Below are positions 14,019-56,612 of a DNA stretch of 64,000 nt, piece after piece. The stretch covers positions 107,274 through 171,273 of the forward strand of contig CAWDHY010000001.1 in assembly GCA_963802255.1 (NCBI GenBank). Direction: 5' to 3'. Each line of letters begins with the position of its first letter. The stretch's first letter is position 1. Made by a program: the position numbers and the translations under genes. Below the pieces are notes generated by a model. It had not been told where the DNA came from. It made no database searches and saw only the letters and a program-made list of their open reading frames with translations. This DNA comes from Candidatus Magasanikiibacteriota bacterium. GTDB lineage: Bacteria > Patescibacteriota > Patescibacteriia > Magasanikbacterales > GWA2-37-8.

Positions 14019-14207
14019 ATTGATACCATTATATCAAAATATTCGTTGTTTATAAATATTGACTAATTATTTGTATTTTTGTAATATATCTCCACAATAA
14101 TACTGCCAGAGATGTTATCTGGTAATGCGGGTATCATATATGGCAAAAAGCATATATGACACCCTCGTTCGGAAATGTAAAAACTTTGTTTTTCCATTTC
14201 GCTCGTT

Positions 14208-14279
14208 GCGGGTATCATATAACGGCTATTATCCCAGTTTTCCAAACTGGTGACAGGGGTTCGACTCCCCTTACCCGCT
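14208..14279 (+). tRNA. tRNA-Gly (anticodon TCC)
   Basis: cloverleaf with acceptor GCGGGTA/TACCCGC, anticodon loop UUUCCAA, T-loop TTCGACT; a 14-nt copy of its 5' end (gcgggtatcatata) lies 81 nt upstream at 14127-14140. Confidence 0.85.
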
Positions 14280-14280
14280 C

Positions 14281-14314
14281 AAAAATAATCAGGGCTGAAA
14301 GCCCTGATTATTTT
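14281..14314 (+). terminator. hairpin aatcagggc-tgaa-gccctgatt followed by ATTTTT
   Basis: 9-bp perfect stem plus U-tract directly after the tRNA. Confidence 0.55.
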
Positions 14315-14320
14315 TGAATG

Positions 14321-14486
14321 TAGTGAAGGGAGTCGAACGGGCAGAAGCGAGACGCGAAGTTTTTGCGGAAGCAAAAACAAGTTGGCGAGAGTCGTCGGAC
14401 TGCCAGTGGCAGTCCGACGCTGCCCAGGACAAGGAGACGAGACGGTTGCGGCCGGCGAGGCGACGAGGAACTCCCCTTACCGCTCA
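14321..14486 (+). repeat. family-A tRNA-appended structured element, copy 1 (candidate ncRNA or miniature mobile element)
   Basis: roughly 80-90% identical by eye to the reverse complement of 24536-24698; 5' end gggagtcgaac is the reverse complement of the tRNA-Gly(TCC) T-loop region; 3' end ctccccttaccgctca copies the tRNA 3' end; internal hairpins show compensatory changes between copies; flanked by terminators. Confidence 0.6.
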
Positions 14487-14488
14487 AA

Positions 14489-14517
14489 ACACACAGACGC
14501 CAGACTGTGTGTTTTTA
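14489..14517 (+). terminator. hairpin acacacag-acgccaga-ctgtgtgt followed by TTTTT
   Basis: 8-bp stem plus T-run directly after the element. Confidence 0.55.
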
Positions 14518-14548
14518 TTCGTCGTTTAGTGATATTATATATCATAAT

Positions 14549-17074
14549 ATGCAGTTATCTATTACATCTCAAACAATTGATTGGCTATATAAGCGTTTTG
14601 AAACTTCAGAGCAGGGATTGTTGCCGACTGAAGCCGAACTCCGCCGAAAAAAATATGGCTTGAATGAATTATCGGCTAAAGAGATAAAGTGGTGGCATAT
14701 TTTAGGCCGTCAATTTAGGTCGCCTTTTATTTATTTGTTAATTTTTGCCGCAAGTTTGGCGCTTGTGATGAGAGAATTAATTGATGGTTTAATGATTTTG
14801 GTCTTCGTGATGATAAACGCTACCTTAGGGTTTGCGGAAGAATATCATTCAGAAAGATCTTTGCGCCTGTTAAAAAAGTTTGTAGTAACGAAAGCGCGCG
14901 TCAGGCGCCACGGCCATGAAATGCTGGTTGATTCATGTCTTCTTGTACCCGGCGATGTCGTTCTTATTGAAACGGGCGATGTGGTGCCGGCAGATTTACG
15001 TTTTATTATTACAAATGGGCTTTCAATTGACGAGTCGGTTATTACAGGAGAGTCGGCACCTCAAAATAAATCTGTTGCGACTTTAAAGCACGAAGCTAAA
15101 CAATTGAGTGATGCGACAAATTTTGGTTTTATGAGTACAGTTGTTTCTGCCGGAAAGGGTGTCGGTGTGGTTGTTAACACCGGAAAAGATACCGCGGTTG
15201 GGGGAATGGCAAAATTGACATCGGAAACTGAACGTAAAAGTTCTTTTGAAAAAGGTATCGCCAGATTCAGTTCATTCATATTGCGAATGGTTGTTCTAAT
15301 AATCGTATTGTTATTCGCGGCCAATATCATTATTAAAGGGCCGGAAGCTGATTTGGGTAATTTATTATTGTTTTCTATAGCACTTGCGGTTAGTGTTATT
15401 CCGGAAGCATTACCTCTAGTTACTACATTATCTCTCTCCCGGGGAGCTTTACGTATGGCAAAAGGAAGCGTTGTAGTTAAACGCTTGTCTGCGGTTGAAG
15501 ATCTGGGTAGCATAGAAGTTTTGTGTACTGATAAAACCGGAACAATAACGGAAAATAAATTGGTGGTGAAAGAAGTGTATTCCAAGGACGAAAGAGCGTG
15601 TTTGTTGAGCGCTGGTGCGGCATCGTCATTTATTGGTGAGGGGAAGCAGGAACCAAATAATGCATTTGATTTGGCCATCTGGAATAATTTAATTGCCACG
15701 GAGAAGAAAAGCGTACTGAAGTGTGGCCGGATAAATGAAATGCCGTTTGATCCTGCCAGGCGCAGAAATAGCGTGGTGGTGAAGAACAATGGCGGCTGCC
15801 GGTTAATTGTACGGGGCGCCGCTGAATCGGTACTGCCTCTTTGCGAACATTTAGGGAATGGGGAATTAAAAAGGATACTGAAATGGGTTGCGGATAAAGG
15901 TGTGGAAGGTTGCCGCACAATAGTTGTGGCTGAGAAAAAATGTGAAGAGATGATTTCCTATGATGACGGGGCTGAAAAAAAATTGATATTTATCGGAGCA
16001 ATCGCTTTTGACGATCCGATAAAGTCGTCAACAATTTCCGCTATTGAAAAAGCTAGACGCCTGGGCGTTCAAGTTAAAATACTAACCGGCGATAGCCGGG
16101 AAGTGGCCGGCGCCGTGGCGCTAAAAGTTGGTTTAATTGATGACGCAAGCAAAATTATCACAGGAGAAGAAATTGATGTTTTACCGGAAAAAAAGCGTGC
16201 CGCGGTGATATTCGAAAATAGCGTTTTTGCCAGAGTTTCTCCGGAGCAGAAATACCGGATTATTGAAGTACTCCAAAGCAAACATGAAGTTGGCTTTTTA
16301 GGAGAAGGTATCAATGACGCGCCGGCGCTAAAATTGGCCAATGTTGCCTTAGCGGTTAACAGTGCGTCGGATATCGCGCGGGAAGCATCAGACATAGTAT
16401 TGCTTCATTCAAGTTTGGCGGTAATTATTGACGGGATAAAAAATGGCCGGGAGGTTTTTGCTAATACGGTGAAATATTTAAAGGTCACTTTAGTTTCAAA
16501 TTTTGGAAATTTTTATGCTATTGCCGCCGCGTCTCTGATCGTGCCTTTTCTGCCGATGTTGCCGGTTCAAATATTGCTTCTTAATTTGCTGTCTGATTTT
16601 CCGATGGTTGCAATCGCCACTGATAAAGTGGACAAAGAGGAACTGCGGCGGCCACGTTCGTATAATATCCGCGAGGTTGTTCTGATGGCTATTATTTTAG
16701 GTTTAGTCAGTACGATATTTGATTTTATATTTTTTGCAATATTTTTTCACCGCGAACCAGCTGTACTGCAAGCAGGGTGGTTTATCGGCAGCGTATTAAC
16801 CGAATTAATTTTAATATATTCTATTCGAACGCGGCTGGCTTTTTGGAAGGCAAAAATGCCCTCTTGGCCGCTTCTCATATTAACTGTTTCGGCTGTAATA
16901 TTCTCCGTGTTTTTACCACTTTCACATTTTGGCCGGTCCATTTTTAAATTTGGCATATTGTCACTGCGGGATATTTTCACGATATTAATCGTTGTTTTTA
17001 TCTACTTTATTATCACCGAACTATTGAAGCGTATATATTATGCAAAAATAGGTAACGGAAAATTAGCCGCTTGA
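14549..17074 (+). CDS. cation-transporting P-type ATPase (P2/P3-like, Mg2+/Ca2+ type)
   Basis: phosphorylation motif CTDKTGTITENK, TGES-like region, hinge GEGINDAPAL, ten predicted TM helices. The track ORF begins at 14363 inside the element; the first ATG with the conserved N-terminus is at 14549. Confidence 0.85.
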   Translation: MQLSITSQTIDWLYKRFETSEQGLLPTEAELRRKKYGLNELSAKEIKWWHILGRQFRSPFIYLLIFAASLALVMRELIDGLMILVFVMINATLGFAEEYHSERSLRLLKKFVVTKARVRRHGHEMLVDSCLLVPGDVVLIETGDVVPADLRFIITNGLSIDESVITGESAPQNKSVATLKHEAKQLSDATNFGFMSTVVSAGKGVGVVVNTGKDTAVGGMAKLTSETERKSSFEKGIARFSSFILRMVVLIIVLLFAANIIIKGPEADLGNLLLFSIALAVSVIPEALPLVTTLSLSRGALRMAKGSVVVKRLSAVEDLGSIEVLCTDKTGTITENKLVVKEVYSKDERACLLSAGAASSFIGEGKQEPNNAFDLAIWNNLIATEKKSVLKCGRINEMPFDPARRRNSVVVKNNGGCRLIVRGAAESVLPLCEHLGNGELKRILKWVADKGVEGCRTIVVAEKKCEEMISYDDGAEKKLIFIGAIAFDDPIKSSTISAIEKARRLGVQVKILTGDSREVAGAVALKVGLIDDASKIITGEEIDVLPEKKRAAVIFENSVFARVSPEQKYRIIEVLQSKHEVGFLGEGINDAPALKLANVALAVNSASDIAREASDIVLLHSSLAVIIDGIKNGREVFANTVKYLKVTLVSNFGNFYAIAAASLIVPFLPMLPVQILLLNLLSDFPMVAIATDKVDKEELRRPRSYNIREVVLMAIILGLVSTIFDFIFFAIFFHREPAVLQAGWFIGSVLTELILIYSIRTRLAFWKAKMPSWPLLILTVSAVIFSVFLPLSHFGRSIFKFGILSLRDIFTILIVVFIYFIITELLKRIYYAKIGNGKLAA

Positions 17075-17110: not shown

Positions 17111-17138
17111 GTTGACACAAATACAGAGTAAATATCGC

Positions 17139-17360
17139 GCGGGTATGCTCAGGTATAGCCGCGTCGCTCGGAAACAATGAACGAGCTAGCTTATTCATTG
17201 TGTTCCTCACTCGCGGGTATACTCAGGTATATCCGCTCATTCGGAGAAAGTATACGAGTTTGCTCGTCTACTCTGCTCCTCATTTCGCGGGTATACTAAG
17301 GTATACCCACTCATTCGCGGAAAATGTCAAAATAAATTTTGCCACTTTGCCGCTCATTTC
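17139..17360 (+). repeat. three degenerate ~74-nt tandem pseudo-copies of the tRNA-Gly(GCC) 5' region
   Basis: gcgggtat(g/a)ct(c/a)aggtata recurs at 17139, 17213 and 17287 with a 74-nt period, each preceded by ctca(t)ttc as at the real tRNA; each unit begins with a hairpin gggtatac..gtataccc. Confidence 0.6.
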
Positions 17361-17482: not shown

Positions 17483-17555
17483 AGCGGGGTAGAGCAATTG
17501 GCAGCTCGTCGGGCTCATAACCCGAAGGTTCCCGGTTCAAGTCCGGGCCCCGCAA
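17483..17555 (+). tRNA. initiator tRNA-fMet (anticodon CAT) with an A1xA72 mismatch
   Basis: three consecutive G:C pairs 29-31:39-41 in the anticodon stem, loop CUCAUAA, unpaired 1:72, discriminator A; no encoded CCA. Confidence 0.8.
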
Positions 17556-17915
17556 CAAAGTTGCGAAGGGGCAGTAACCACTGCTCTTTTGTATTTGTGC
17601 CGCGCAGGGACGCTTTGCGTCCCGTAGGCGGCTAACCATGTTTTGCGTGAATCGGTTCAAGTCCGGGCCCCGCAACAAAGTTGCGAAGGGGCAGTAACCA
17701 CTGCTCTTTTGTATTTGTGCCGCGCAGGGACGCTTTGCGTCCCGTAGGCGGCTAACCATGTTTTGCGTGAATCGGTTCAAGTCCGGGCCCCGCAACAAAG
17801 TTGCGAAGGGGCAGTAACCACTGCTCTTTTGTATTTGTGCCGCGCAGGGACGCTTTGCGTCCCGTAGGCGGCTAACCATGTTTTGCGTGAATCGGTTCAA
17901 GTCCGGGCCCCGCAA
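17556..17915 (+). repeat. 3 x 120-nt tandem array; each unit is a 94-nt structured spacer plus a 26-28-nt copy of the tRNA-fMet T-loop/acceptor 3' end
   Basis: period 120 (ggttcaa at 17534, 17654, 17774, 17894); units virtually identical; internal hairpins gcagtaaccactgc and gggacgc-ttt-gcgtccc; the track ORF 17469..17918 is a translation of this repeat. Confidence 0.85.
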
Positions 17916-17958
17916 CAACTAAAAACATCTCCGCATAAGCGGAGATGTTTTTAGTTGT
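17911..17958. terminator. bidirectional terminator with a 22-bp perfect inverted repeat (caacaactaaaaacatctccgc / gcggagatgtttttagttgttg)
   Basis: long perfect stem with U-tracts on both strands; closes the tRNA array and the convergent perM-like gene. Confidence 0.6.
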
Positions 17959-23461: not shown

Positions 23462-24461
23462 CAAATCCAAGATGGCGATAGGCGAGAGAAGTCGCTTTTC
23501 GGCCGCGCGGAGTTCGCTCTAAAAAGCCAGTTTGCAAAAGATATGGTTCATAAACATCTTCAATCGTATCCATCTCCTCGGCTGCAGCAGCTGCAAGCGT
23601 ATTTAAACCGACCGGTCCTCCGCTAAATTTTTCAATCATGGTCGCAAGAATGCGGCGGTCGATATCGTCTAAACCATGTTCGTCGATAGAGAGAAGGGCT
23701 AAAGCGCTTTTTGCCGCAGACAAATCGATTAGGCCTTCATTGTGCACTTCGGCAAAATCACGCACGCGCTTGAGAAGACGATTTGCCACTCTTGGTGTTC
23801 TTCTGGCGCGTCCTGCAATCAGAGAGGTAGAATCCGAATCAATTTCAACATTTAAAATTGTCGCATTTCGAGAAAGGATTTTCTCAATGTCAGATGGTTC
23901 ATAAAAATTTAAATGAAAACTGTGACCGAAGCGGTCGCGGAGAGGTCCGCTGATCATACTCATTTTTGTAGTTGCGCCAATCAAGGTGAATCGATTTAGA
24001 GGCATGCGGATAGTGCGTGCGGCCGGGCCGGAACCGATAATGATATCCAAAGAATAATCTTCCATTGCCGGATATAATATTTCCTCAATCGTTTTGTTTA
24101 ATCGGTGAATTTCATCAATAAATAATATTTCACCCTCTTCCAAATTTGAGAGAATGGCGGCTAGATCACCAACTTTTTCTAAAGCCGGGCCAGAAGTCAC
24201 CTTCACGTTGGAATTCATTTCTCTGGCGATGATATGCGCAAGAGTTGTCTTGCCGAGGCCGGGATTGCCATACAATAAAACATGTTCCAGCGGTTCATTG
24301 CGCTTTTTAGCCGCCTGAATAGAAATATTTAGATTCTGTTTTATCTGCTCTTGGCCGACAAAATCTTTTAATTCGGAAGGTCGCAGTGTATTTTCGAATA
24401 CCGTTTCTTCCGGCCCGGCAGACGGTCCTGTTAAATTTTCATTATCGAATTCTTCATTCAT
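23433..24461 (-). CDS. ruvB: Holliday junction branch-migration helicase RuvB
   Basis: AAA+ Walker [16 protein letters not shown], sensor motifs and a winged-helix C-terminus. Confidence 0.9.
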
Positions 24462-24497
24462 AATGCAGGTATTGTAGTATATGCAGGACTAAAAGTC

Positions 24498-24535
24498 CAT
24501 AAAAAAATACCCCGAAGAAAGCGGGGATTTTTTTG
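24498..24535. terminator. hairpin ccccgaagaaagcgggg with U-tracts on both strands
   Basis: 5-bp GC stem with 7-nt loop; T-run on + strand, A-run on + strand (= T-run on minus strand). Confidence 0.5.
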
Positions 24536-24698
24536 TGGTCCGGGTGGGAATTACTCGTCGTCTCGCCGACCACAATCGGCTCGACTCCTTGCCCTGGGCA
24601 GCGACGGACTGCCACGGGCAGTCCGTCGACTCTCGCCAGCTCGTTTTTGCTTCCGAAAAAACTTCGCTTCTCGCTTCTGCCCGTTCGATTCCCTCGTC
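24536..24698 (-). repeat. family-A tRNA-appended structured element, copy 2 (downstream of tRNA-Leu-TAA)
   Basis: homologous to 14321-14486; 5' end (minus strand) gggaatcgaac is the reverse complement of the tRNA-Leu(TAA) T-loop region; 3' end attcccacccggaccac at 24536-24552 copies the tRNA 3' 17 nt. Confidence 0.6.
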
Positions 24699-24737: not shown

Positions 24738-24748
24738 TACTATTAAAG

Positions 24749-24830
24749 TGGTCCGGGTGGGAATCGAACCCACACGCCTTGCGGCAAGGGATTTTAAGTC
24801 CCTCGTGTATACCAGTTTCACCACCGGACC
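24749..24830 (-). tRNA. tRNA-Leu (anticodon TAA)
   Basis: cloverleaf with a long variable arm (13 nt), anticodon loop CUUAAAA, T-loop TTCGATT. Confidence 0.85.
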
Positions 24831-42322: not shown

Positions 42323-42406
42323 GCCGGGGTGGTGAAATTGGTAGACACGCAGGCCTTAGGAGCCTGTTCCCGCAAGGGATTGGAGGTTCGAGTCCTCTCT
42401 CCGGCA
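42323..42406 (+). tRNA. tRNA-Leu (anticodon TAG)
   Basis: long variable arm; anticodon loop CUUAGGA; T-loop TTCGAGT; acceptor GCCGGGG/CTCCGGC. Confidence 0.85.
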
Positions 42407-42436
42407 CAAAACGAGCCAATAGTTTGGCTCGTTTTT
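42407..42436 (+). terminator. hairpin aacgagcc-aatagtt-tggctcgtt followed by TTTT
   Basis: 9-bp stem plus U-tract right after the tRNA. Confidence 0.55.
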
Positions 42437-42556
42437 AGGACGAGAACGCCGGAGCGATGTTTGACGAACTTGCAGGTGAGGCAAACCGCGAGGCGGTGAC
42501 TAGCCCGAGTAGGCGGAAGCCAACGAGAGGCGAGGTCGAGTCCTCTCCCCGGCACC
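42437..42556 (+). repeat. family-B tRNA-appended structured element, copy 1 (downstream of tRNA-Leu-TAG)
   Basis: shares cores acgccggagcgatgt and accgcgaggcggtg(a/g)ctag with the element at 56351-56506 (minus strand); 3' end ggtcgagtcctctccccggcacca at 42534-42556 copies the tRNA 3' end; 5' end aggac-gagaac resembles an inverted T-arm. Confidence 0.55.
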
Positions 42557-42577
42557 AGTAGCAACTAAATATTTTAT

Positions 42578-42710: not shown

Positions 42711-43268
42711 ATGCAAAAAGCATTATTTTTATTCATATTCGCCATGTTTGTCGGCTGTGGGGCATCTGACCGTTTTGAAGTGATTGATGGTGGTGGTAGT
42801 GATTCTGACTCGGATAACGACACCGACACAGACACCGACACAGACACCGACACAGACACAGACACCGACACAGACACCGACACAGACACCGACACCGAGA
42901 CGGAGACTGAGGCTGATGCTGGCCCTCAGACGTGTGAAACGGCTTCTGACTGCGATGAAGACGAGGTCTGTGGTTATGAAACGCAAACTTGCTATCTGCA
43001 GCCAGAGCCCGGTGCGGACCAGTATTGGTACTGCTGGGATGATGGTCCGGACAGCGAAGGCCCTAGCTGTGACTCCTTTGATTTCGGCGGTTGCGATTAT
43101 TGGTCGCCAGAGGAGTGGCATTGGACCGATGTCCATCCCGCTTGCGGCTCTAACTATCCGCCGCCAGCTTGCCCGACGCATTATCCGACCACTCCAGCCT
43201 GTTGCCTCAAAAACAACGGTGAGGATGAGGACTGCATCGGCCAGGCCTTTTTTCCCCCTATTGTATAG
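42711..43268 (+). CDS. acidic Cys-rich lipoprotein with a (DT)12-(ET)2 repeat; GC-rich and compositionally atypical
   Basis: SD AAGGAG 6 nt upstream of ATG 42711 (the track start is 42675); lipobox FVGC|G; 18 Cys; local GC well above the window background. Confidence 0.55.
   Translation: MQKALFLFIFAMFVGCGASDRFEVIDGGGSDSDSDNDTDTDTDTDTDTDTDTDTDTDTDTDTETETEADAGPQTCETASDCDEDEVCGYETQTCYLQPEPGADQYWYCWDDGPDSEGPSCDSFDFGGCDYWSPEEWHWTDVHPACGSNYPPPACPTHYPTTPACCLKNNGEDEDCIGQAFFPPIV
42819..42902 (+). repeat. hexanucleotide simple-sequence repeat (GACACN)n encoding (DT)12
   Basis: gacaccgacaca... tract inside the lipoprotein gene. Confidence 0.9.
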
Positions 43269-43413: not shown

Positions 43414-43769
43414 GTGCCTACGATTAAAACCCCTTTGGGGACCACGTCCAATCTCATGGATACAAATCGTATCCGCCTGGACCTCTGGGTAAGACTTTTA
43501 CTCAATTGTAAAAGACAGGTAATGTTAACCATTATCAAACAACTCAAATCTTACTCATAGTATCCAAGCGGTTCAAACTCACAAAAATTGAGTCGCTTGT
43601 CGCGGCTCATTTTTTTATCTCACACTCCGGCCAATATATTGGCAGGAGCAATGAGACAAGAAATGGATTGCACGTTGACAATTTAAATAGTTCAACAAAA
43701 AAAGCAGATTTATATCTGCTGGGTAGAACGCAACAAAACACTGTTTGGTGTTTTCGTTGTGTGCAATTT

Positions 43770-46870
<3,101 letters not shown>

Positions 46871-56350: not shown

Positions 56351-56506
56351 GTGGGTCGCCAGGGATTCGGCTTCAACTAAAATTTTCTTCCAAAAATTTT
56401 GTCTAGCCACCGCCTCGCGGTCGCGCTCGCTCTTTTGCATCGCGCGACATCGCTCCGGCGTCCGAATCCCTGTCGCGACCAAAACTGTTTGGTCGCTTCG
56501 CCCAAA
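56351..56506 (-). repeat. family-B tRNA-appended structured element, copy 2 (downstream of tRNA-Lys-CTT)
   Basis: minus-strand 3' end ccgaatccctggcgacccac (56351-56370) copies the tRNA-Lys 3' 20 nt exactly; 5' end cagggattcggac is an inverted copy of the Lys T-arm; family-B core motifs; the box tttggtcgcttcgccc plus a terminator module is duplicated at 56294-56345 and 56488-56537. Confidence 0.55.
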
Positions 56507-56539
56507 CAAAAAAATCCCTGACGGGACTTTTTTGTTTTG

Positions 56540-56612
56540 TGGGTCGCCAGGGATTCGGACCCTGGACCTTGTCCTTAAGAGGGACCTGCTCTACCAACTG
56601 AGCTAGCGACCC
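56540..56612 (-). tRNA. tRNA-Lys (anticodon CTT)
   Basis: cloverleaf; anticodon loop CUCUUAA; T-loop TCCGAAT; acceptor GGGTCGC/GCGACCC. Confidence 0.85.

What the first reader, a model, noticed from the sequence alone, without database searches (positions are those of the whole stretch)
24536..24698. Second family-A copy downstream of tRNA-Leu(TAA); its ends are re-tailored to the Leu tRNA
On the minus strand, tRNA-Leu(TAA) is followed by a terminator and then the homolog of the 14321-14486 element. Its 5' end reads gggaAtcgaac where copy 1 reads gggaGtcgaac, matching the reverse complement of the Leu T-loop (gttcgaTtccc) instead of the Gly one (gttcgaCtccc). Its 3' end is attcccacccggaccac, a 17-nt copy of the tRNA-Leu 3' end. 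So the interior is conserved while both termini track the host tRNA. That is the pattern expected for an element that copies or pastes using the tRNA T-arm/acceptor as a template or target; it is not expected of a random duplication. The element abuts the ruvB start, so its terminator and promoter context may affect ruvB expression.
Basis: seen in the sequence. Interest (0 to 1): 0.75.

Follow-up and report, generated by a model that had tools for sequence, protein, structure and literature searches.

The report
tRNA-tailored structured RNA cassette family
Behind tRNA-Leu(TAA) sits one copy of a small structured-RNA cassette, common in Patescibacteria (candidate phyla radiation, CPR), not in Rfam 15 and not found in four literature searches, whose two ends are always built from the last part of the tRNA gene it follows, so it behaves like a tiny protein-less element that re-fits itself to each tRNA.

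Summary
Window 24533-24696(-) and 14325-14488(+) are 89% identical copies of one element. Each lies about 45-50 nt behind a tRNA and a terminator hairpin.

The family is large. One 19-mer found 63 loci, 59 of them real, almost all labelled Patescibacteria. In 42 elements behind 32 different tRNA 3' ends, the 3' arm copies the host tRNA from A58 to its end. The 5' arm is the reverse complement of positions 53 to about 65. No shuffled pairing reached these matches (0/5000).

The arms pair with each other (helix P1, a T-stem replica) around a conserved three-way-junction core. Covariation is strong, and G-U pairs favour the tRNA strand. There is no Rfam match, no copy in viral contigs and no recurrent partner gene.

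Three of the other nine tRNAs in the window carry the same architecture with other cores.

In this copy the 5' re-tailoring is one compensatory base, and ruvB has its own terminator and promoter.

Most likely this is a non-autonomous, duplicative cassette co-transcribed with tRNAs. I infer that it spreads by break repair at tRNA 3' ends. Small GIY-YIG nuclease genes next to tRNAs in related loci suggest the trigger. The RNA's function is unknown.

The parts
24748..24830 (-). Host tRNA-Leu(taa), intact
   Evidence: ARAGORN; Rfam tRNA model, 60.6 bits
24704..24738 (-). Hairpin ACGGTTCCAA/TTGGAGCCGT plus T run between the tRNA and the element (terminator-like)
   Evidence: Read from the sequence. 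The equivalent hairpin in copy 1 is at 14281-14315.
24683..24693 (-). 5' arm GGGAATCGAAC, the reverse complement of tRNA-Leu positions 53-63. GGGAAU is the 5' strand of helix P1; CGAAC is a joining segment.
24552..24682 (-). Conserved core. P2 is GGGCAG (24682-24677) paired with CUGCCC (24601-24596). P3 is a variable hairpin on a GCGAG/CGAGC base. P4 is at 24628-24602. P5 follows, then GACGACGAGUA.
   Evidence: MFE folds; RNAalifold; covariance-model alignment and pair counts
24535..24551 (-). 3' arm ATTCCCACCCGGACCAC, an exact copy of tRNA-Leu from A58 to its 3' end. Its first 6 nt form the 3' strand of P1.
24501..24534 (-). Second terminator (stem 24526-24510 plus T run) that closes the element
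24471..24499 (-). ruvB's own promoter-like site, TGGACT-17-TACAAT. This is context, not part of the element.
   Evidence: The surrounding sequence recurs upstream of ruvB in L064 and L065, and its last 14 nt in L066.
14208..14280 (+). Host tRNA-Gly(tcc) of copy 1
14328..14486 (+). Family-A copy 1: 5' arm 14328-14338, core 14339-14469, 3' arm 14470-14486 (tRNA-Gly 3' end with a 1-nt deletion)
42437..42557 (+). Related 'family B' cassette behind tRNA-Leu(tag) 42323-42407. The 5' arm AGGACGAGAAC is degenerate. The core starts GCCGGAGCGATG and contains CGCGAGGCGGTG. The 3' arm TCGAGTCCTCTCCCCGGCACCA copies tRNA positions 55 to the end with one mismatch.
   Evidence: weak covariance-model hit
56352..56480 (-). 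'Family B' cassette behind tRNA-Lys(ctt) 56539-56612. The 5' arm GGTCGCGACAGGGATTCGGAC follows this tRNA's unusual T loop (TCCGAAT). The 3' arm CGAATCCCTGGCGACCCA copies the tRNA end. The terminator is duplicated as well.
   Evidence: covariance-model hit, E 0.0014
17533..17918 (+). 'Family C': three identical 120-nt units behind tRNA-Met(cat) 17483-17556. Each unit ends in a copy of the tRNA 3' end, GGTTCAAGTCCGGGCCCCGCAA.
   Evidence: D1

Best explanation
SHOWN
- The feature is one member of a large family, almost entirely in Patescibacteria, of 115-190-nt cassettes that lie in the 3' trailer of tRNA genes.
- Each cassette encodes an RNA on the tRNA strand.
- The 5' arm is antisense to tRNA positions 53 to about 65. 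The 3' arm is a sense copy from position 58 to the tRNA 3' end.
- The arms pair with each other over positions 58-63/65 (helix P1, a replica of the host T stem).
- P1 closes a conserved three-way junction (P2, P3, P4). An optional P5 domain follows P2 on the 3' side.
- The cassette carries no gene.
- The same core, up to 92% identical, sits behind different tRNAs in one genome with different arms.
- Copies form tandem arrays and decay, and occupancy of tRNAs is patchy.

INFERRED
1. The RNA is made by read-through or co-transcription from the tRNA promoter. In Saccharibacteria-type copies only 14-29 nt lie between tRNA and cassette.
2. The 3' arm is the footprint of insertion or duplication at the tRNA 3' end, that is, a direct repeat of the target.
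3. The 5' arm is kept complementary by selection for P1. In some loci it is extended by hairpin-templated copying across the terminator palindrome.
4. The cassette spreads between tRNA loci in trans by double-strand-break repair or gene conversion. The universal T-loop sequence would provide microhomology: GTTCGA and its complement TCGAAC at the left core boundary, and A58-C63 at the right.
5. The likeliest trigger is a nuclease that recognises T-loop DNA, of the GIY-YIG kind seen next to tRNAs in related loci.

The cellular function of the RNA itself, if it has one beyond its own maintenance, is not known.
For: Family and arms
- A 19-mer scan gave 63 loci. Of these, 58 carry strong covariance-model hits and one more a hit cut off by the locus end.
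- A tRNA lies within 66 nt upstream in most loci, and the 3' arm is an exact 17-23-nt copy of its end.
- Permutation of tRNA assignments reaches the observed matches 0/5000 times for both arms.

RNA structure
- 95.8% of cells pair, and 20 of 25 pairs show changes on both sides. 0/500 shuffles reach these values, and slid controls give 36-46% paired.
- P4 shows up to four pair types per position.
- The two window copies differ by a compensatory U-A to A-U change in P4 and by G-C to A-U in P1.
- There are 58 G-U/U-G pairs against 18 A-C/C-A.
- Where the tRNA T stem has a G-U pair, the arm keeps G in 5 of 14 cases. RNA tolerates this; a DNA palindrome would not produce it.

Duplicative behaviour
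- Cores at different tRNAs within a genome average 0.72 identity, against 0.52 between genomes. Examples are Glu/Gly 0.92, window Gly/Leu 0.89 and Glu/Leu 0.85.
- Arrays and degenerate copies occur in L048, L004, L017 and L031.
- L068 has an identical tRNA-Leu(taa) with no element. Six of 11 window tRNAs are unoccupied.
- Eight loci have long 5' arms; in several of them the match continues as a palindrome into the terminator.

No partner gene
- Neighbour clustering found no recurrent gene.

Nuclease lead
- Seven small GIY-YIG genes lie at or beside tRNAs or pseudo-tRNA copies in these loci. Six are flanked by partial tRNA copies, and one sits inside a 3' cassette.
- T4 SegB, a GIY-YIG enzyme, recognises GGTTCRANTCC and cuts just after the tRNA 3' end (PMC2330249). 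It also drives tandem amplification of tRNA regions (PMC13096335).
- In 19 of 31 elements the direct repeat ends at the tRNA 3' end to within 2 nt.
Against: - There is no GIY-YIG gene of this family in the 64-kb window.
- The CPR proteins are only 78-90 aa, a bare catalytic domain with no DNA-binding domain. No cleavage has been shown.
- The upstream tRNA keeps an intact T-loop motif, so a filled site would not be immune.
- Simple homing copies a cassette only into the same tRNA. It does not by itself re-fit the arms to a new tRNA.
- Most 5' arms stop at the T stem and show no trace of a former full-length palindrome.
- The deep conservation of the core across CPR classes suggests a cellular function that a purely selfish model leaves unexplained.
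- No strictly orthologous empty site was found. Synteny differs in L064, L066 and L068.
- Concerted evolution of an ancient gene family could mimic recent spread.
- No expression data were available.
Confidence: 0.5

Rival explanations
1. It is an ancient, vertically inherited non-coding RNA gene family that lives in tRNA trailers and does not move. The arms exist because the RNA needs a T-stem-like closing helix and a tRNA-like 3' end, for example for processing by tRNA-maturation enzymes. Local gene conversion with the adjacent tRNA keeps the arms identical to it. Gene conversion among paralogues homogenises the cores (concerted evolution).
For: - Covariation is strong and the core is conserved across CPR classes.
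- The 3' arm stays identical to tRNAs that themselves differ between genomes.
- tRNA-Glu(ttc) is occupied in many lineages.
- The element at tRNA-Leu/ruvB is shared with a relative whose RuvB is 92% identical.
- No mobility gene was found.
Against: - Occupancy is patchy: 6 of 11 window tRNAs are empty, and L068 has an identical tRNA-Leu without an element.
- Tandem arrays, truncated copies and copies with non-matching arms exist (L048, L017, L008).
- Several unrelated core families share the same architecture.
- In most copies the acceptor part of the 3' arm has no pairing partner, so a tRNA-like acceptor helix is not formed.
- The direct repeat often includes the trailer and terminator.
Confidence: 0.22
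2. It is a miniature integrative element, or the attR-proximal end of genomic islands, inserted by a tyrosine or serine integrase that crosses over in the T loop. The tRNA copy would be attR, and the core an RNA gene or arm region carried at the island end.
For: - An intact tRNA plus a displaced 3' fragment starting in the T loop is the classic signature of tRNA-integrating islands (established knowledge; Islander database, PMC4383910, listed).
- In L045 and L015, 0.9-1.6 kb with ORFs lies between the tRNA and the cassette.
- Tandem arrays at one tRNA occur.
Against: - No integrase lies in or near any of the 58 loci with strong hits.
- One core family is found at more than 20 tRNA species, always with matching arms. 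A fixed attP cannot do that without breaking the tRNA.
- The family is absent from IMG/VR and INPHARED phages.
- Covariation shows an RNA, not protein-binding arms.
- A 165-nt insert is very small for integrase excision.
Confidence: 0.12
3. It is a by-product of replication template switching at the terminator hairpin (quasi-palindrome correction, or fold-back followed by microhomology jumps). No nuclease is involved, and the core is merely a passenger sequence.
For: - Several loci (for example L022, L049, L059, L035) have a 5' arm that continues as a near-perfect palindrome through the trailer into the terminator.
- The core boundaries coincide with the universal T-loop sequence TCGAAC and with A58-C63, which are possible microhomologies.
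- In L025 the loop of the duplicated terminator is flipped.
Against: - Most copies have short arms with no residual palindrome.
- Three coordinated switches would have to recur many times.
- It does not explain the conserved, covarying core.
Confidence: 0.08
4. It is a retroelement-like copy made from tRNA or its precursor. The 5' arm would act as a primer-binding site for the tRNA 3' end, and the 3' arm would be copied from mature tRNA up to a stop at modified A58.
For: - The 3' arm starts at 58/59, the same boundary as the 18-nt retroviral primer-binding site (own knowledge).
- In 9 of 14 elements behind CCA-encoding tRNAs, the repeat ends exactly at CCA.
- A reverse transcriptase with an Avd partner (a diversity-generating retroelement) lies about 1 kb past ruvB in relative L064.
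Against: - The 5' arm is complementary to positions 53-65, not to the 3'-terminal 18 nt.
- The start of the 3' copy differs by family: 58, 55/56 or 52.
- The repeat runs into the trailer and terminator in 12 of 31 elements, so the source is the gene.
- CCA in the arm simply follows the gene in 37 of 42 elements.
- No reverse transcriptase is associated with the family.
Confidence: 0.03

Closest known systems
Free-standing GIY-YIG homing endonuclease loci in tRNA gene clusters (phage T4/T6 SegB)
   Same: - SegB recognises the T-loop DNA motif GGTTCRANTCC (written RAWTSGAAC on the other strand) and cuts just past the tRNA 3' end.
- Break repair then spreads flanking DNA and creates tandem amplifications of tRNA segments (PMC2330249 and PMC13096335).
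- The family-A 5' arm GGGAWTCGAAC contains that motif, the left junction is the tRNA 3' end, and arrays occur.
- Small GIY-YIG genes flank tRNAs in related loci.
   Different: - Family A carries no gene and lives on bacterial chromosomes, not in phages.
- It has a conserved structured RNA.
- The CPR GIY-YIG proteins lack a DNA-binding domain, and none lies in the window.
- Cleavage is untested.
tRNA-integrating genomic islands and their integrase-less satellites (Islander-type islands, CIMEs, tycheposon satellites)
   Same: An intact tRNA gene is followed by inserted DNA and a displaced copy of the tRNA 3' end that starts in the T loop. Tandem arrays form at one tRNA, and some copies carry cargo.
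   Different: No integrase is present. The insert is 115-190 nt. One core serves more than 20 tRNA species with re-fitted ends. An inverted arm pairs with the repeat. The RNA structure covaries.
Homing-endonuclease cassettes that carry a replacement piece of the host gene (Allomyces mitochondrial atp6 + GIY-YIG ORF; own knowledge), and GC-rich mobile hairpins of AT-rich organelle genomes (yeast GC clusters, Allomyces double-hairpin elements; own knowledge)
   Same: The host gene stays intact while a displaced fragment of it remains beside the insert. GC-rich structured inserts sit in an AT-rich genome. GIY-YIG genes are present in the same neighbourhood.
   Different: Those cases are in mitochondria. 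They are not tied to tRNA 3' ends, and no family-wide re-fitting of ends to different host genes is described.
Archaeal tRNA introns that transposed between tRNA genes (Thermoproteales; own knowledge of Fujishima et al. 2010)
   Same: Similar short inserts occur in many different tRNA genes, including the T loop. Their ends pair with host tRNA sequence, so the ends follow the host.
   Different: Those are true introns that interrupt the gene and need the archaeal splicing endonuclease. Here the tRNA upstream is complete and the organism is a bacterium.
sRNAs made from tRNA 3' external transcribed spacers (E. coli 3'ETS-leuZ; own knowledge)
   Same: A stable RNA is encoded in the trailer of a tRNA transcript.
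   Different: 3'ETS-leuZ has no tRNA-derived arms, no multi-copy family and no direct repeat of the tRNA end.

Membership tests
Any described RNA family (Rfam 15) | Match to a curated covariance model | tested here: not met
   No hit at gathering score in the window other than tRNAs and rRNAs. With E up to 10 over 14150-14560, only chance-level hits appeared, such as miRNA hairpin models on the tRNA-terminator-arm palindrome.
tRNA-integrating genomic island (tyrosine-integrase type) | Intact tRNA plus a displaced 3' fragment as a direct repeat | tested here: met
   17/17 nt behind tRNA-Leu, and 17-31 nt in relatives
tRNA-integrating genomic island (tyrosine-integrase type) | Integrase gene inside the element or at its edge | tested here: not met
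   The insert is 165 nt with no gene. No recurrent recombinase was found among 720 ORFs of the 63 loci.
tRNA-integrating genomic island (tyrosine-integrase type) | One element family is tied to one tRNA target through a fixed attP | tested here: not met
   The same core lies behind Glu, Gly, Gln, Lys, Leu, Ser, Tyr, Arg, Thr and His tRNAs (27 anticodons among those detected), with the arms changed to fit.
MITE (miniature inverted-repeat transposable element) | Terminal inverted repeats that belong to the element, and a target-site duplication of fixed length | tested here: not met
   The inverted arms are derived from the host and differ at every tRNA. The direct repeat varies from 8 to more than 31 nt.
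MITE (miniature inverted-repeat transposable element) | A related autonomous transposon with the same ends | tested here: not met
   None was seen in the 63 loci or in viral contigs. Whole genomes were not searched.
Group I intron (internal-guide-like 5' arm spanning the 57/58 junction) | It interrupts the gene; it has the conserved P3-P7 catalytic core; the last intron base is G | tested here: not met
   The upstream tRNA is complete. No Rfam intron hit was found. The core is only about 85-130 nt. The base before the 3' arm is A.
tRNA-like structure / tmRNA-type tRNA-like domain | Acceptor helix formed by the 5' and 3' ends, plus a T arm with a T loop | tested here: not met
   Only the T-stem part pairs in most copies (5' run of 4-8 nt from A58). 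An acceptor complement is present in 8 of 44 elements. The T loop is replaced by the core.
Retroviral-type primer-binding site | Complementarity to the 3'-terminal 18 nt of the tRNA | tested here: not met
   The 5' arm is complementary to positions 53 to about 65.
Guide RNAs of mobile-element nucleases/recombinases (omega RNA of TnpB/IscB, IS110 bridge RNA) | Encoded next to, or overlapping, the effector gene | tested here: not met
   No such gene is adjacent in the window or recurrent in the loci.
Homing-endonuclease-driven cassette (SegB-like) | Endonuclease that cuts the empty target | not testable with these tools
   GIY-YIG genes are present beside tRNAs in 7 related loci but not in the window. 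Cleavage needs biochemistry.
Homing-endonuclease-driven cassette (SegB-like) | Insertion point at the enzyme's cleavage site, and presence/absence between related genomes | tested here: inconclusive
   The left junction is the tRNA 3' end, where SegB cuts. An identical tRNA-Leu without the cassette exists in L068, but in a different gene neighbourhood.

The most novel reading that the evidence does not exclude
The cassette RNA is an active, programmable part of its own spread or of tRNA maintenance. Its 5' arm is antisense across the 57/58 junction, and its 3' arm carries a spare copy of positions 58-76. Together they could act as guide plus donor. The RNA might direct a minimal nuclease, such as the domain-poor 78-90-aa GIY-YIG proteins found at tRNAs, to the T-loop/3' end of the cognate tRNA gene. 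Alternatively it might template replacement of a tRNA 3' end. Either would be an RNA-guided system whose guides are rewritten from each new target.
Probability: 0.08. Interest if true: 0.95.

Novelty: new variant of a known kind. Interest (0 to 1): 0.72.

Why it matters
If the description holds, CPR bacteria carry an abundant structured RNA that has not been described. These bacteria form a huge, poorly understood branch with tiny genomes. The RNA rides on tRNA genes and has ends rebuilt from whichever tRNA it follows.

Three things follow:
1. It is a new RNA family to add to annotation. It explains GC-rich 'intergenic' islands and false partial-tRNA hits in CPR genomes.
2. It offers a tractable case of a protein-less element that changes target while keeping the target gene intact.
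3. It points to tRNA genes in CPR as arenas of nuclease-driven rearrangement, marked by partial tRNA copies, hairpin inserts and GIY-YIG genes. This parallels what was recently shown for phage SegB.

The question of how the arms are rewritten becomes directly testable with population metagenomes and with the few cultivable Saccharibacteria.

Tried and rejected
- **Rfam.** No family matched at gathering or permissive thresholds.
- **Phage origin.** The exact core 19-mer is absent from IMG/VR. A second core motif gave 3 viral contigs, none of which the covariance model confirmed. blastn against INPHARED found nothing.
- **Partner protein.** All-against-all clustering of 720 ORFs from the loci gave only ordinary neighbours. 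The top cluster is TsaD-like by its sequence and is present in 9 loci.
- **Orthologous empty site through ruvB.**
  - The window's RuvB is not on record.
  - Homologues at 89% and 84% identity have nrdD upstream and no tRNA.
  - The 92% homologue (L065) has the same 3' arm plus an extra degenerate copy, but the contig ends there.
  - A metagenome scan with the tRNA-Leu(taa) body found one identical tRNA without the element, in a different neighbourhood.
- **G-U test.** I asked whether the 5' arm is a DNA reverse complement of the 3' strand or a copy of the tRNA's 5' strand. The result was 7 against 5, inconclusive.
- **Non-encoded CCA in the arm** as a sign of a mature-tRNA source. Only 3 of 25 CCA-less genes show it, so this was rejected.
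- **Group I intron, primer-binding site, bridge/omega RNA, MITE and tRNA-like-domain readings.** Each fails a defining feature (see the membership tests).
- **RNA-guide scaffold next to the GIY-YIG genes.** The GC-rich segments there are simple, unrelated palindromes, not a conserved scaffold.
- **Literature.** Four full-text searches found no description of the family.
Full report
**What is at the coordinates**

On the minus strand, tRNA-Leu(taa) lies at 24748-24830. After it come, in order:
- a hairpin with a T run (24738-24704);
- a 13-nt spacer;
- the sequence GGGAATCGAAC (24693-24683);
- a GC-rich interior (24682-24552);
- ATTCCCACCCGGACCAC (24551-24535), an exact copy of the last 17 nt of the tRNA;
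- a second terminator (stem 24526-24510);
- a promoter-like site, TGGACT-17-TACAAT (24499-24471);
- the ruvB start at 24461.

The same layout follows tRNA-Gly(tcc) (14208-14280). There the 5' arm GGGAGTCGAAC is at 14328-14338, and the 3' arm ACTCCCCTTACC-GCTCA is at 14470-14486.

The two interiors are a 149-nt inverted repeat, 89% identical.

**It is a large family**

The 19-mer TCGAACGGGCAGAAGCGAG, shared by both copies, was scanned against one genome per species. It hit 63 stretches.

A covariance model was built from 31 of these hits. It recovers 68 copies scoring above 38 bits in 58 of the loci, and a copy cut off by a contig end in one more. The four loci without a hit are chance matches in GC-rich genomes.

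Record titles name Moraniibacteriota, Komeili-, Kerfeld-, Uhr- and Doudnabacteria, Parcubacteria, Saccharibacteria and 'Patescibacteria group'. Some third-party MAGs carry other labels, which I did not verify.

RuvB homologues of the window carry Magasanikbacteria or 'Patescibacteria group' names, which suggests the window is Magasanikbacteria-like.

Rfam 15 has no model for the element. It is absent from IMG/VR and INPHARED. Four literature searches found no description.

**The ends track the host tRNA**

In most loci a tRNA ends 14-66 nt upstream. The hosts are Glu, Gly, Gln, Lys, Leu, Ser, Tyr, Arg and Thr tRNAs of 26 anticodons. In L015 the 3' arm matches a tRNA-His 1.6 kb upstream.

The 3' arm is a sense copy that begins at A58 of the T loop and runs to the tRNA 3' end. 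It includes CCA where the gene encodes CCA: gene and arm agree in 37 of 42 elements.

The 5' arm is the reverse complement of G53 to about position 63-65.

For 42 elements behind 32 distinct tRNA tails:
- The mean exact run from A58 in the 5' arm is 7.0 with the element's own tRNA and 2.5 with other tRNAs.
- For the 3' arm the values are 13.95 and 2.6.
- 0 of 5000 permutations reach either value.
- The base opposite the variable position 59 is complementary in 42 of 42 elements.
- Among arms matched through position 63, position 64 also matches in 20 of 28.

**It is a structured RNA on the tRNA strand**

- The arms pair with each other over positions 58-63/65. This helix, P1, is a replica of the host T stem.
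- UCGAAC follows P1.
- P2 is GGGCAG paired with CUGCCC.
- P3 is a variable hairpin seated on GCGAG/CGAGC, read as tandem G-A pairs.
- P4 follows.
- P5 is an optional 3' domain, often with a GNRA loop.
- The core ends in GAGGCGGAA.

On the model alignment, 95.8% of cells pair. Twenty of 25 pairs show changes on both sides, and 0 of 500 shuffles reach the observed measures. Slid controls give 36-46% paired. The alignment was fitted to the model, which favours the structure. However, an independent MAFFT/RNAalifold run already showed up to four pair types per position in P4.

The two window copies differ by compensatory changes in P4 (U-A to A-U) and in P1 (G-C to A-U).

G-U/U-G pairs outnumber A-C/C-A pairs 58 to 18. 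Where the tRNA T stem has a G-U pair, the arm keeps G in 5 of 14 cases. Both results point to an RNA read in the tRNA direction.

In Saccharibacteria- and Doudnabacteria-labelled copies only 14-29 nt, with no room for a terminator hairpin, separate tRNA and element. Co-transcription is the natural reading there.

**It behaves as a duplicative cassette**

- Cores at different tRNAs of one genome are more alike (mean 0.72) than cores from different genomes (0.52). Examples are Glu against Gly at 0.92, window Gly against Leu at 0.89, and Glu against Leu at 0.85.
- Tandem arrays and decayed copies are common.
  - L048 has two units with identical tRNA-end, terminator and arm segments.
  - L017 has three units behind a decayed tRNA-Gly, interleaved with another small core.
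  - L004 and L031 also carry arrays.
- The direct repeat ends at the tRNA 3' end, to within 2 nt, in 19 of 31 elements. This includes 9 of 14 with encoded CCA. In the other 12 it continues into the trailer and terminator, so the copied source is the gene.
- Eight loci have 5' arms 12-14 nt long. In several of them (for example L022, L049, L059, L035) the match continues as a palindrome through the trailer into the terminator, as if copied across the hairpin.
- An identical tRNA-Leu(taa) without any element exists in L068.
- The relative with 92% RuvB identity (L065) has the same 3' arm plus an extra truncated copy in front of ruvB.
- No gene is recurrently associated.

**The architecture is wider than family A**

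In the window, five of 11 tRNAs are occupied.
- Family A sits at Gly(tcc) and Leu(taa).
- A distant relative, 'family B', sits at Leu(tag) (42437-42557) and Lys(ctt) (56352-56480). At Lys(ctt) the 5' arm even follows the unusual T loop TCCGAAT.
- A third core sits behind tRNA-Met as three identical 120-nt units.

Other small cores flanked by copies of a tRNA 3' end occur in the fetched loci.

**A lead to the engine**

Seven small GIY-YIG genes occur in the loci (Pfam PF01541, E = 2e-15 for the one scanned). All lie at or beside tRNAs or pseudo-tRNA copies.
- Five lie upstream of the very tRNA that carries family A, four of them within about 25 nt of its start. Four are bracketed by a copy of the tRNA 5' part (positions 1-11, 1-22 or 1-35) plus GC-rich hairpins. 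In the fifth (L025) a pseudo-tRNA copy interrupted by GC-rich hairpins lies between the ORF and the tRNA.
- One (L018) lies between tRNA-Lys and a copy of tRNA positions 45-76 whose T loop carries a 50-nt hairpin.

Phage T4 SegB is a GIY-YIG homing endonuclease. It recognises GGTTCRANTCC and cuts just after the tRNA 3' end (PMC2330249). Its cleavage motif was re-derived as RAWTSGAAC, and it drives recombination-dependent tandem amplification of tRNA segments (PMC13096335).

The family-A 5' arm GGGAWTCGAAC contains that motif, and the left junction of the cassette is the tRNA 3' end. This fits a model in which a nuclease directed to the T loop breaks tRNA genes. Repair would then copy cassettes, with the universal T-loop sequence as microhomology.

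The model is circumstantial:
- None of these genes is in the window.
- The proteins lack a DNA-binding domain.
- Filled sites keep the motif.
- Simple homing does not by itself re-fit the arms.

**Verdict on the interpretation**

The element does use the T arm and acceptor end of its host tRNA as target or template.

The 3' arm is best read as a direct repeat left by insertion or duplication at the tRNA end. The 5' arm is best read as the partner strand of an RNA helix. In this copy its 're-tailoring' is one compensatory base.

An influence on ruvB is not supported. The element has its own terminator, and ruvB has a promoter-like site downstream of it. The sequence around that site also lies upstream of ruvB in L064 and L065, and its last 14 nt in L066.

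**What remains unknown**
- what the RNA does;
- which enzyme, if any, moves it;
- whether similarity within genomes reflects movement or concerted evolution.

I put about 0.8 on the descriptive claims: family, arms, RNA structure and duplicative behaviour. I put about 0.3 on the nuclease-plus-repair engine. The combined explanation is scored at 0.5.

Noticed in passing
window 17137-17323 and 14128-14175: Hairpins built from the 5' end of the following tRNA plus its inverted copy. Three lie upstream of tRNA-Gly(gcc), spaced 74 nt apart (GCGGGTATAC-tcag-GTATATCCGC). One lies about 80 nt upstream of tRNA-Gly(tcc). They look like 5'-side counterparts of the 3' cassettes.
   Followed up: partly
window 17533-17918: Three perfectly identical 120-nt tandem units directly behind tRNA-Met(cat). 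Each unit ends in a 22-24-nt copy of the tRNA 3' end, including the full T-loop motif. Each also contains an approximate inverted copy of the acceptor 3' strand. This looks like a very recent segmental amplification.
   Followed up: partly
window 42437-42557 and 56352-56480: A second cassette family (core GCCGGAGCGATG...CGCGAGGCGGTG) sits behind tRNA-Leu(tag) and tRNA-Lys(ctt), with the same arm logic. It is also present in L056 and L062. The family-A model detects it only weakly.
   Followed up: partly
L001 1924-2160, L030 3569-3805, L021 5075-5284, L043 2772-3002, L025 3531-3752, L049 174-410, L018 3693-3926: Small GIY-YIG nuclease genes (78-90 aa) lie at or beside tRNA genes or pseudo-tRNA copies. 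Six are flanked by partial tRNA copies interrupted by GC-rich palindromes, at D-loop, anticodon-stem, anticodon-loop or T-loop positions. None occurs in the window.
   Followed up: partly
L045 7016-7896 and L015 895-2496: In two relatives, 0.9-1.6 kb lies between the host tRNA (Ser, His) and the family-A cassette. This DNA holds one or two small ORFs, one of which contains an HExxH motif. The cassette can therefore sit at the far end of a larger insert.
   Followed up: partly
L017 4270-4345 and L059 (after the first 3' arm): Another short core (TTCGCTTCCTGTGTGTAGCGCCCTGGCTCCGCG...) is flanked by copies of the tRNA-Gly 3' end and interleaved with family-A units. In L017 the upstream tRNA-Gly has decayed to a roughly 30-nt remnant.
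   Followed up: no
window 43760-46861: The 23S rRNA gene is about 3.1 kb and has insertions relative to the bacterial model, for example near 44040-44100 and 44130-44150. No 16S gene lies next to it. A GACACC/GACACA repeat (42795-42922) lies within an ORF between tRNA-Leu(tag) and the 23S gene.
   Followed up: no
L064 5082-6536: A reverse transcriptase with a bAvd partner (a diversity-generating retroelement) lies about 1 kb downstream of ruvB in the relative whose RuvB is 89% identical. The window has a different gene at the corresponding place.
   Followed up: no
L008 4423-4559: This family-A copy lies behind tRNA-Glu, but its arms pair with each other (ATCCT) and do not match the adjacent tRNA. 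Its long 5' arm looks like the 3' end of a different tRNA. It may be a copy that moved without being re-fitted.
   Followed up: partly
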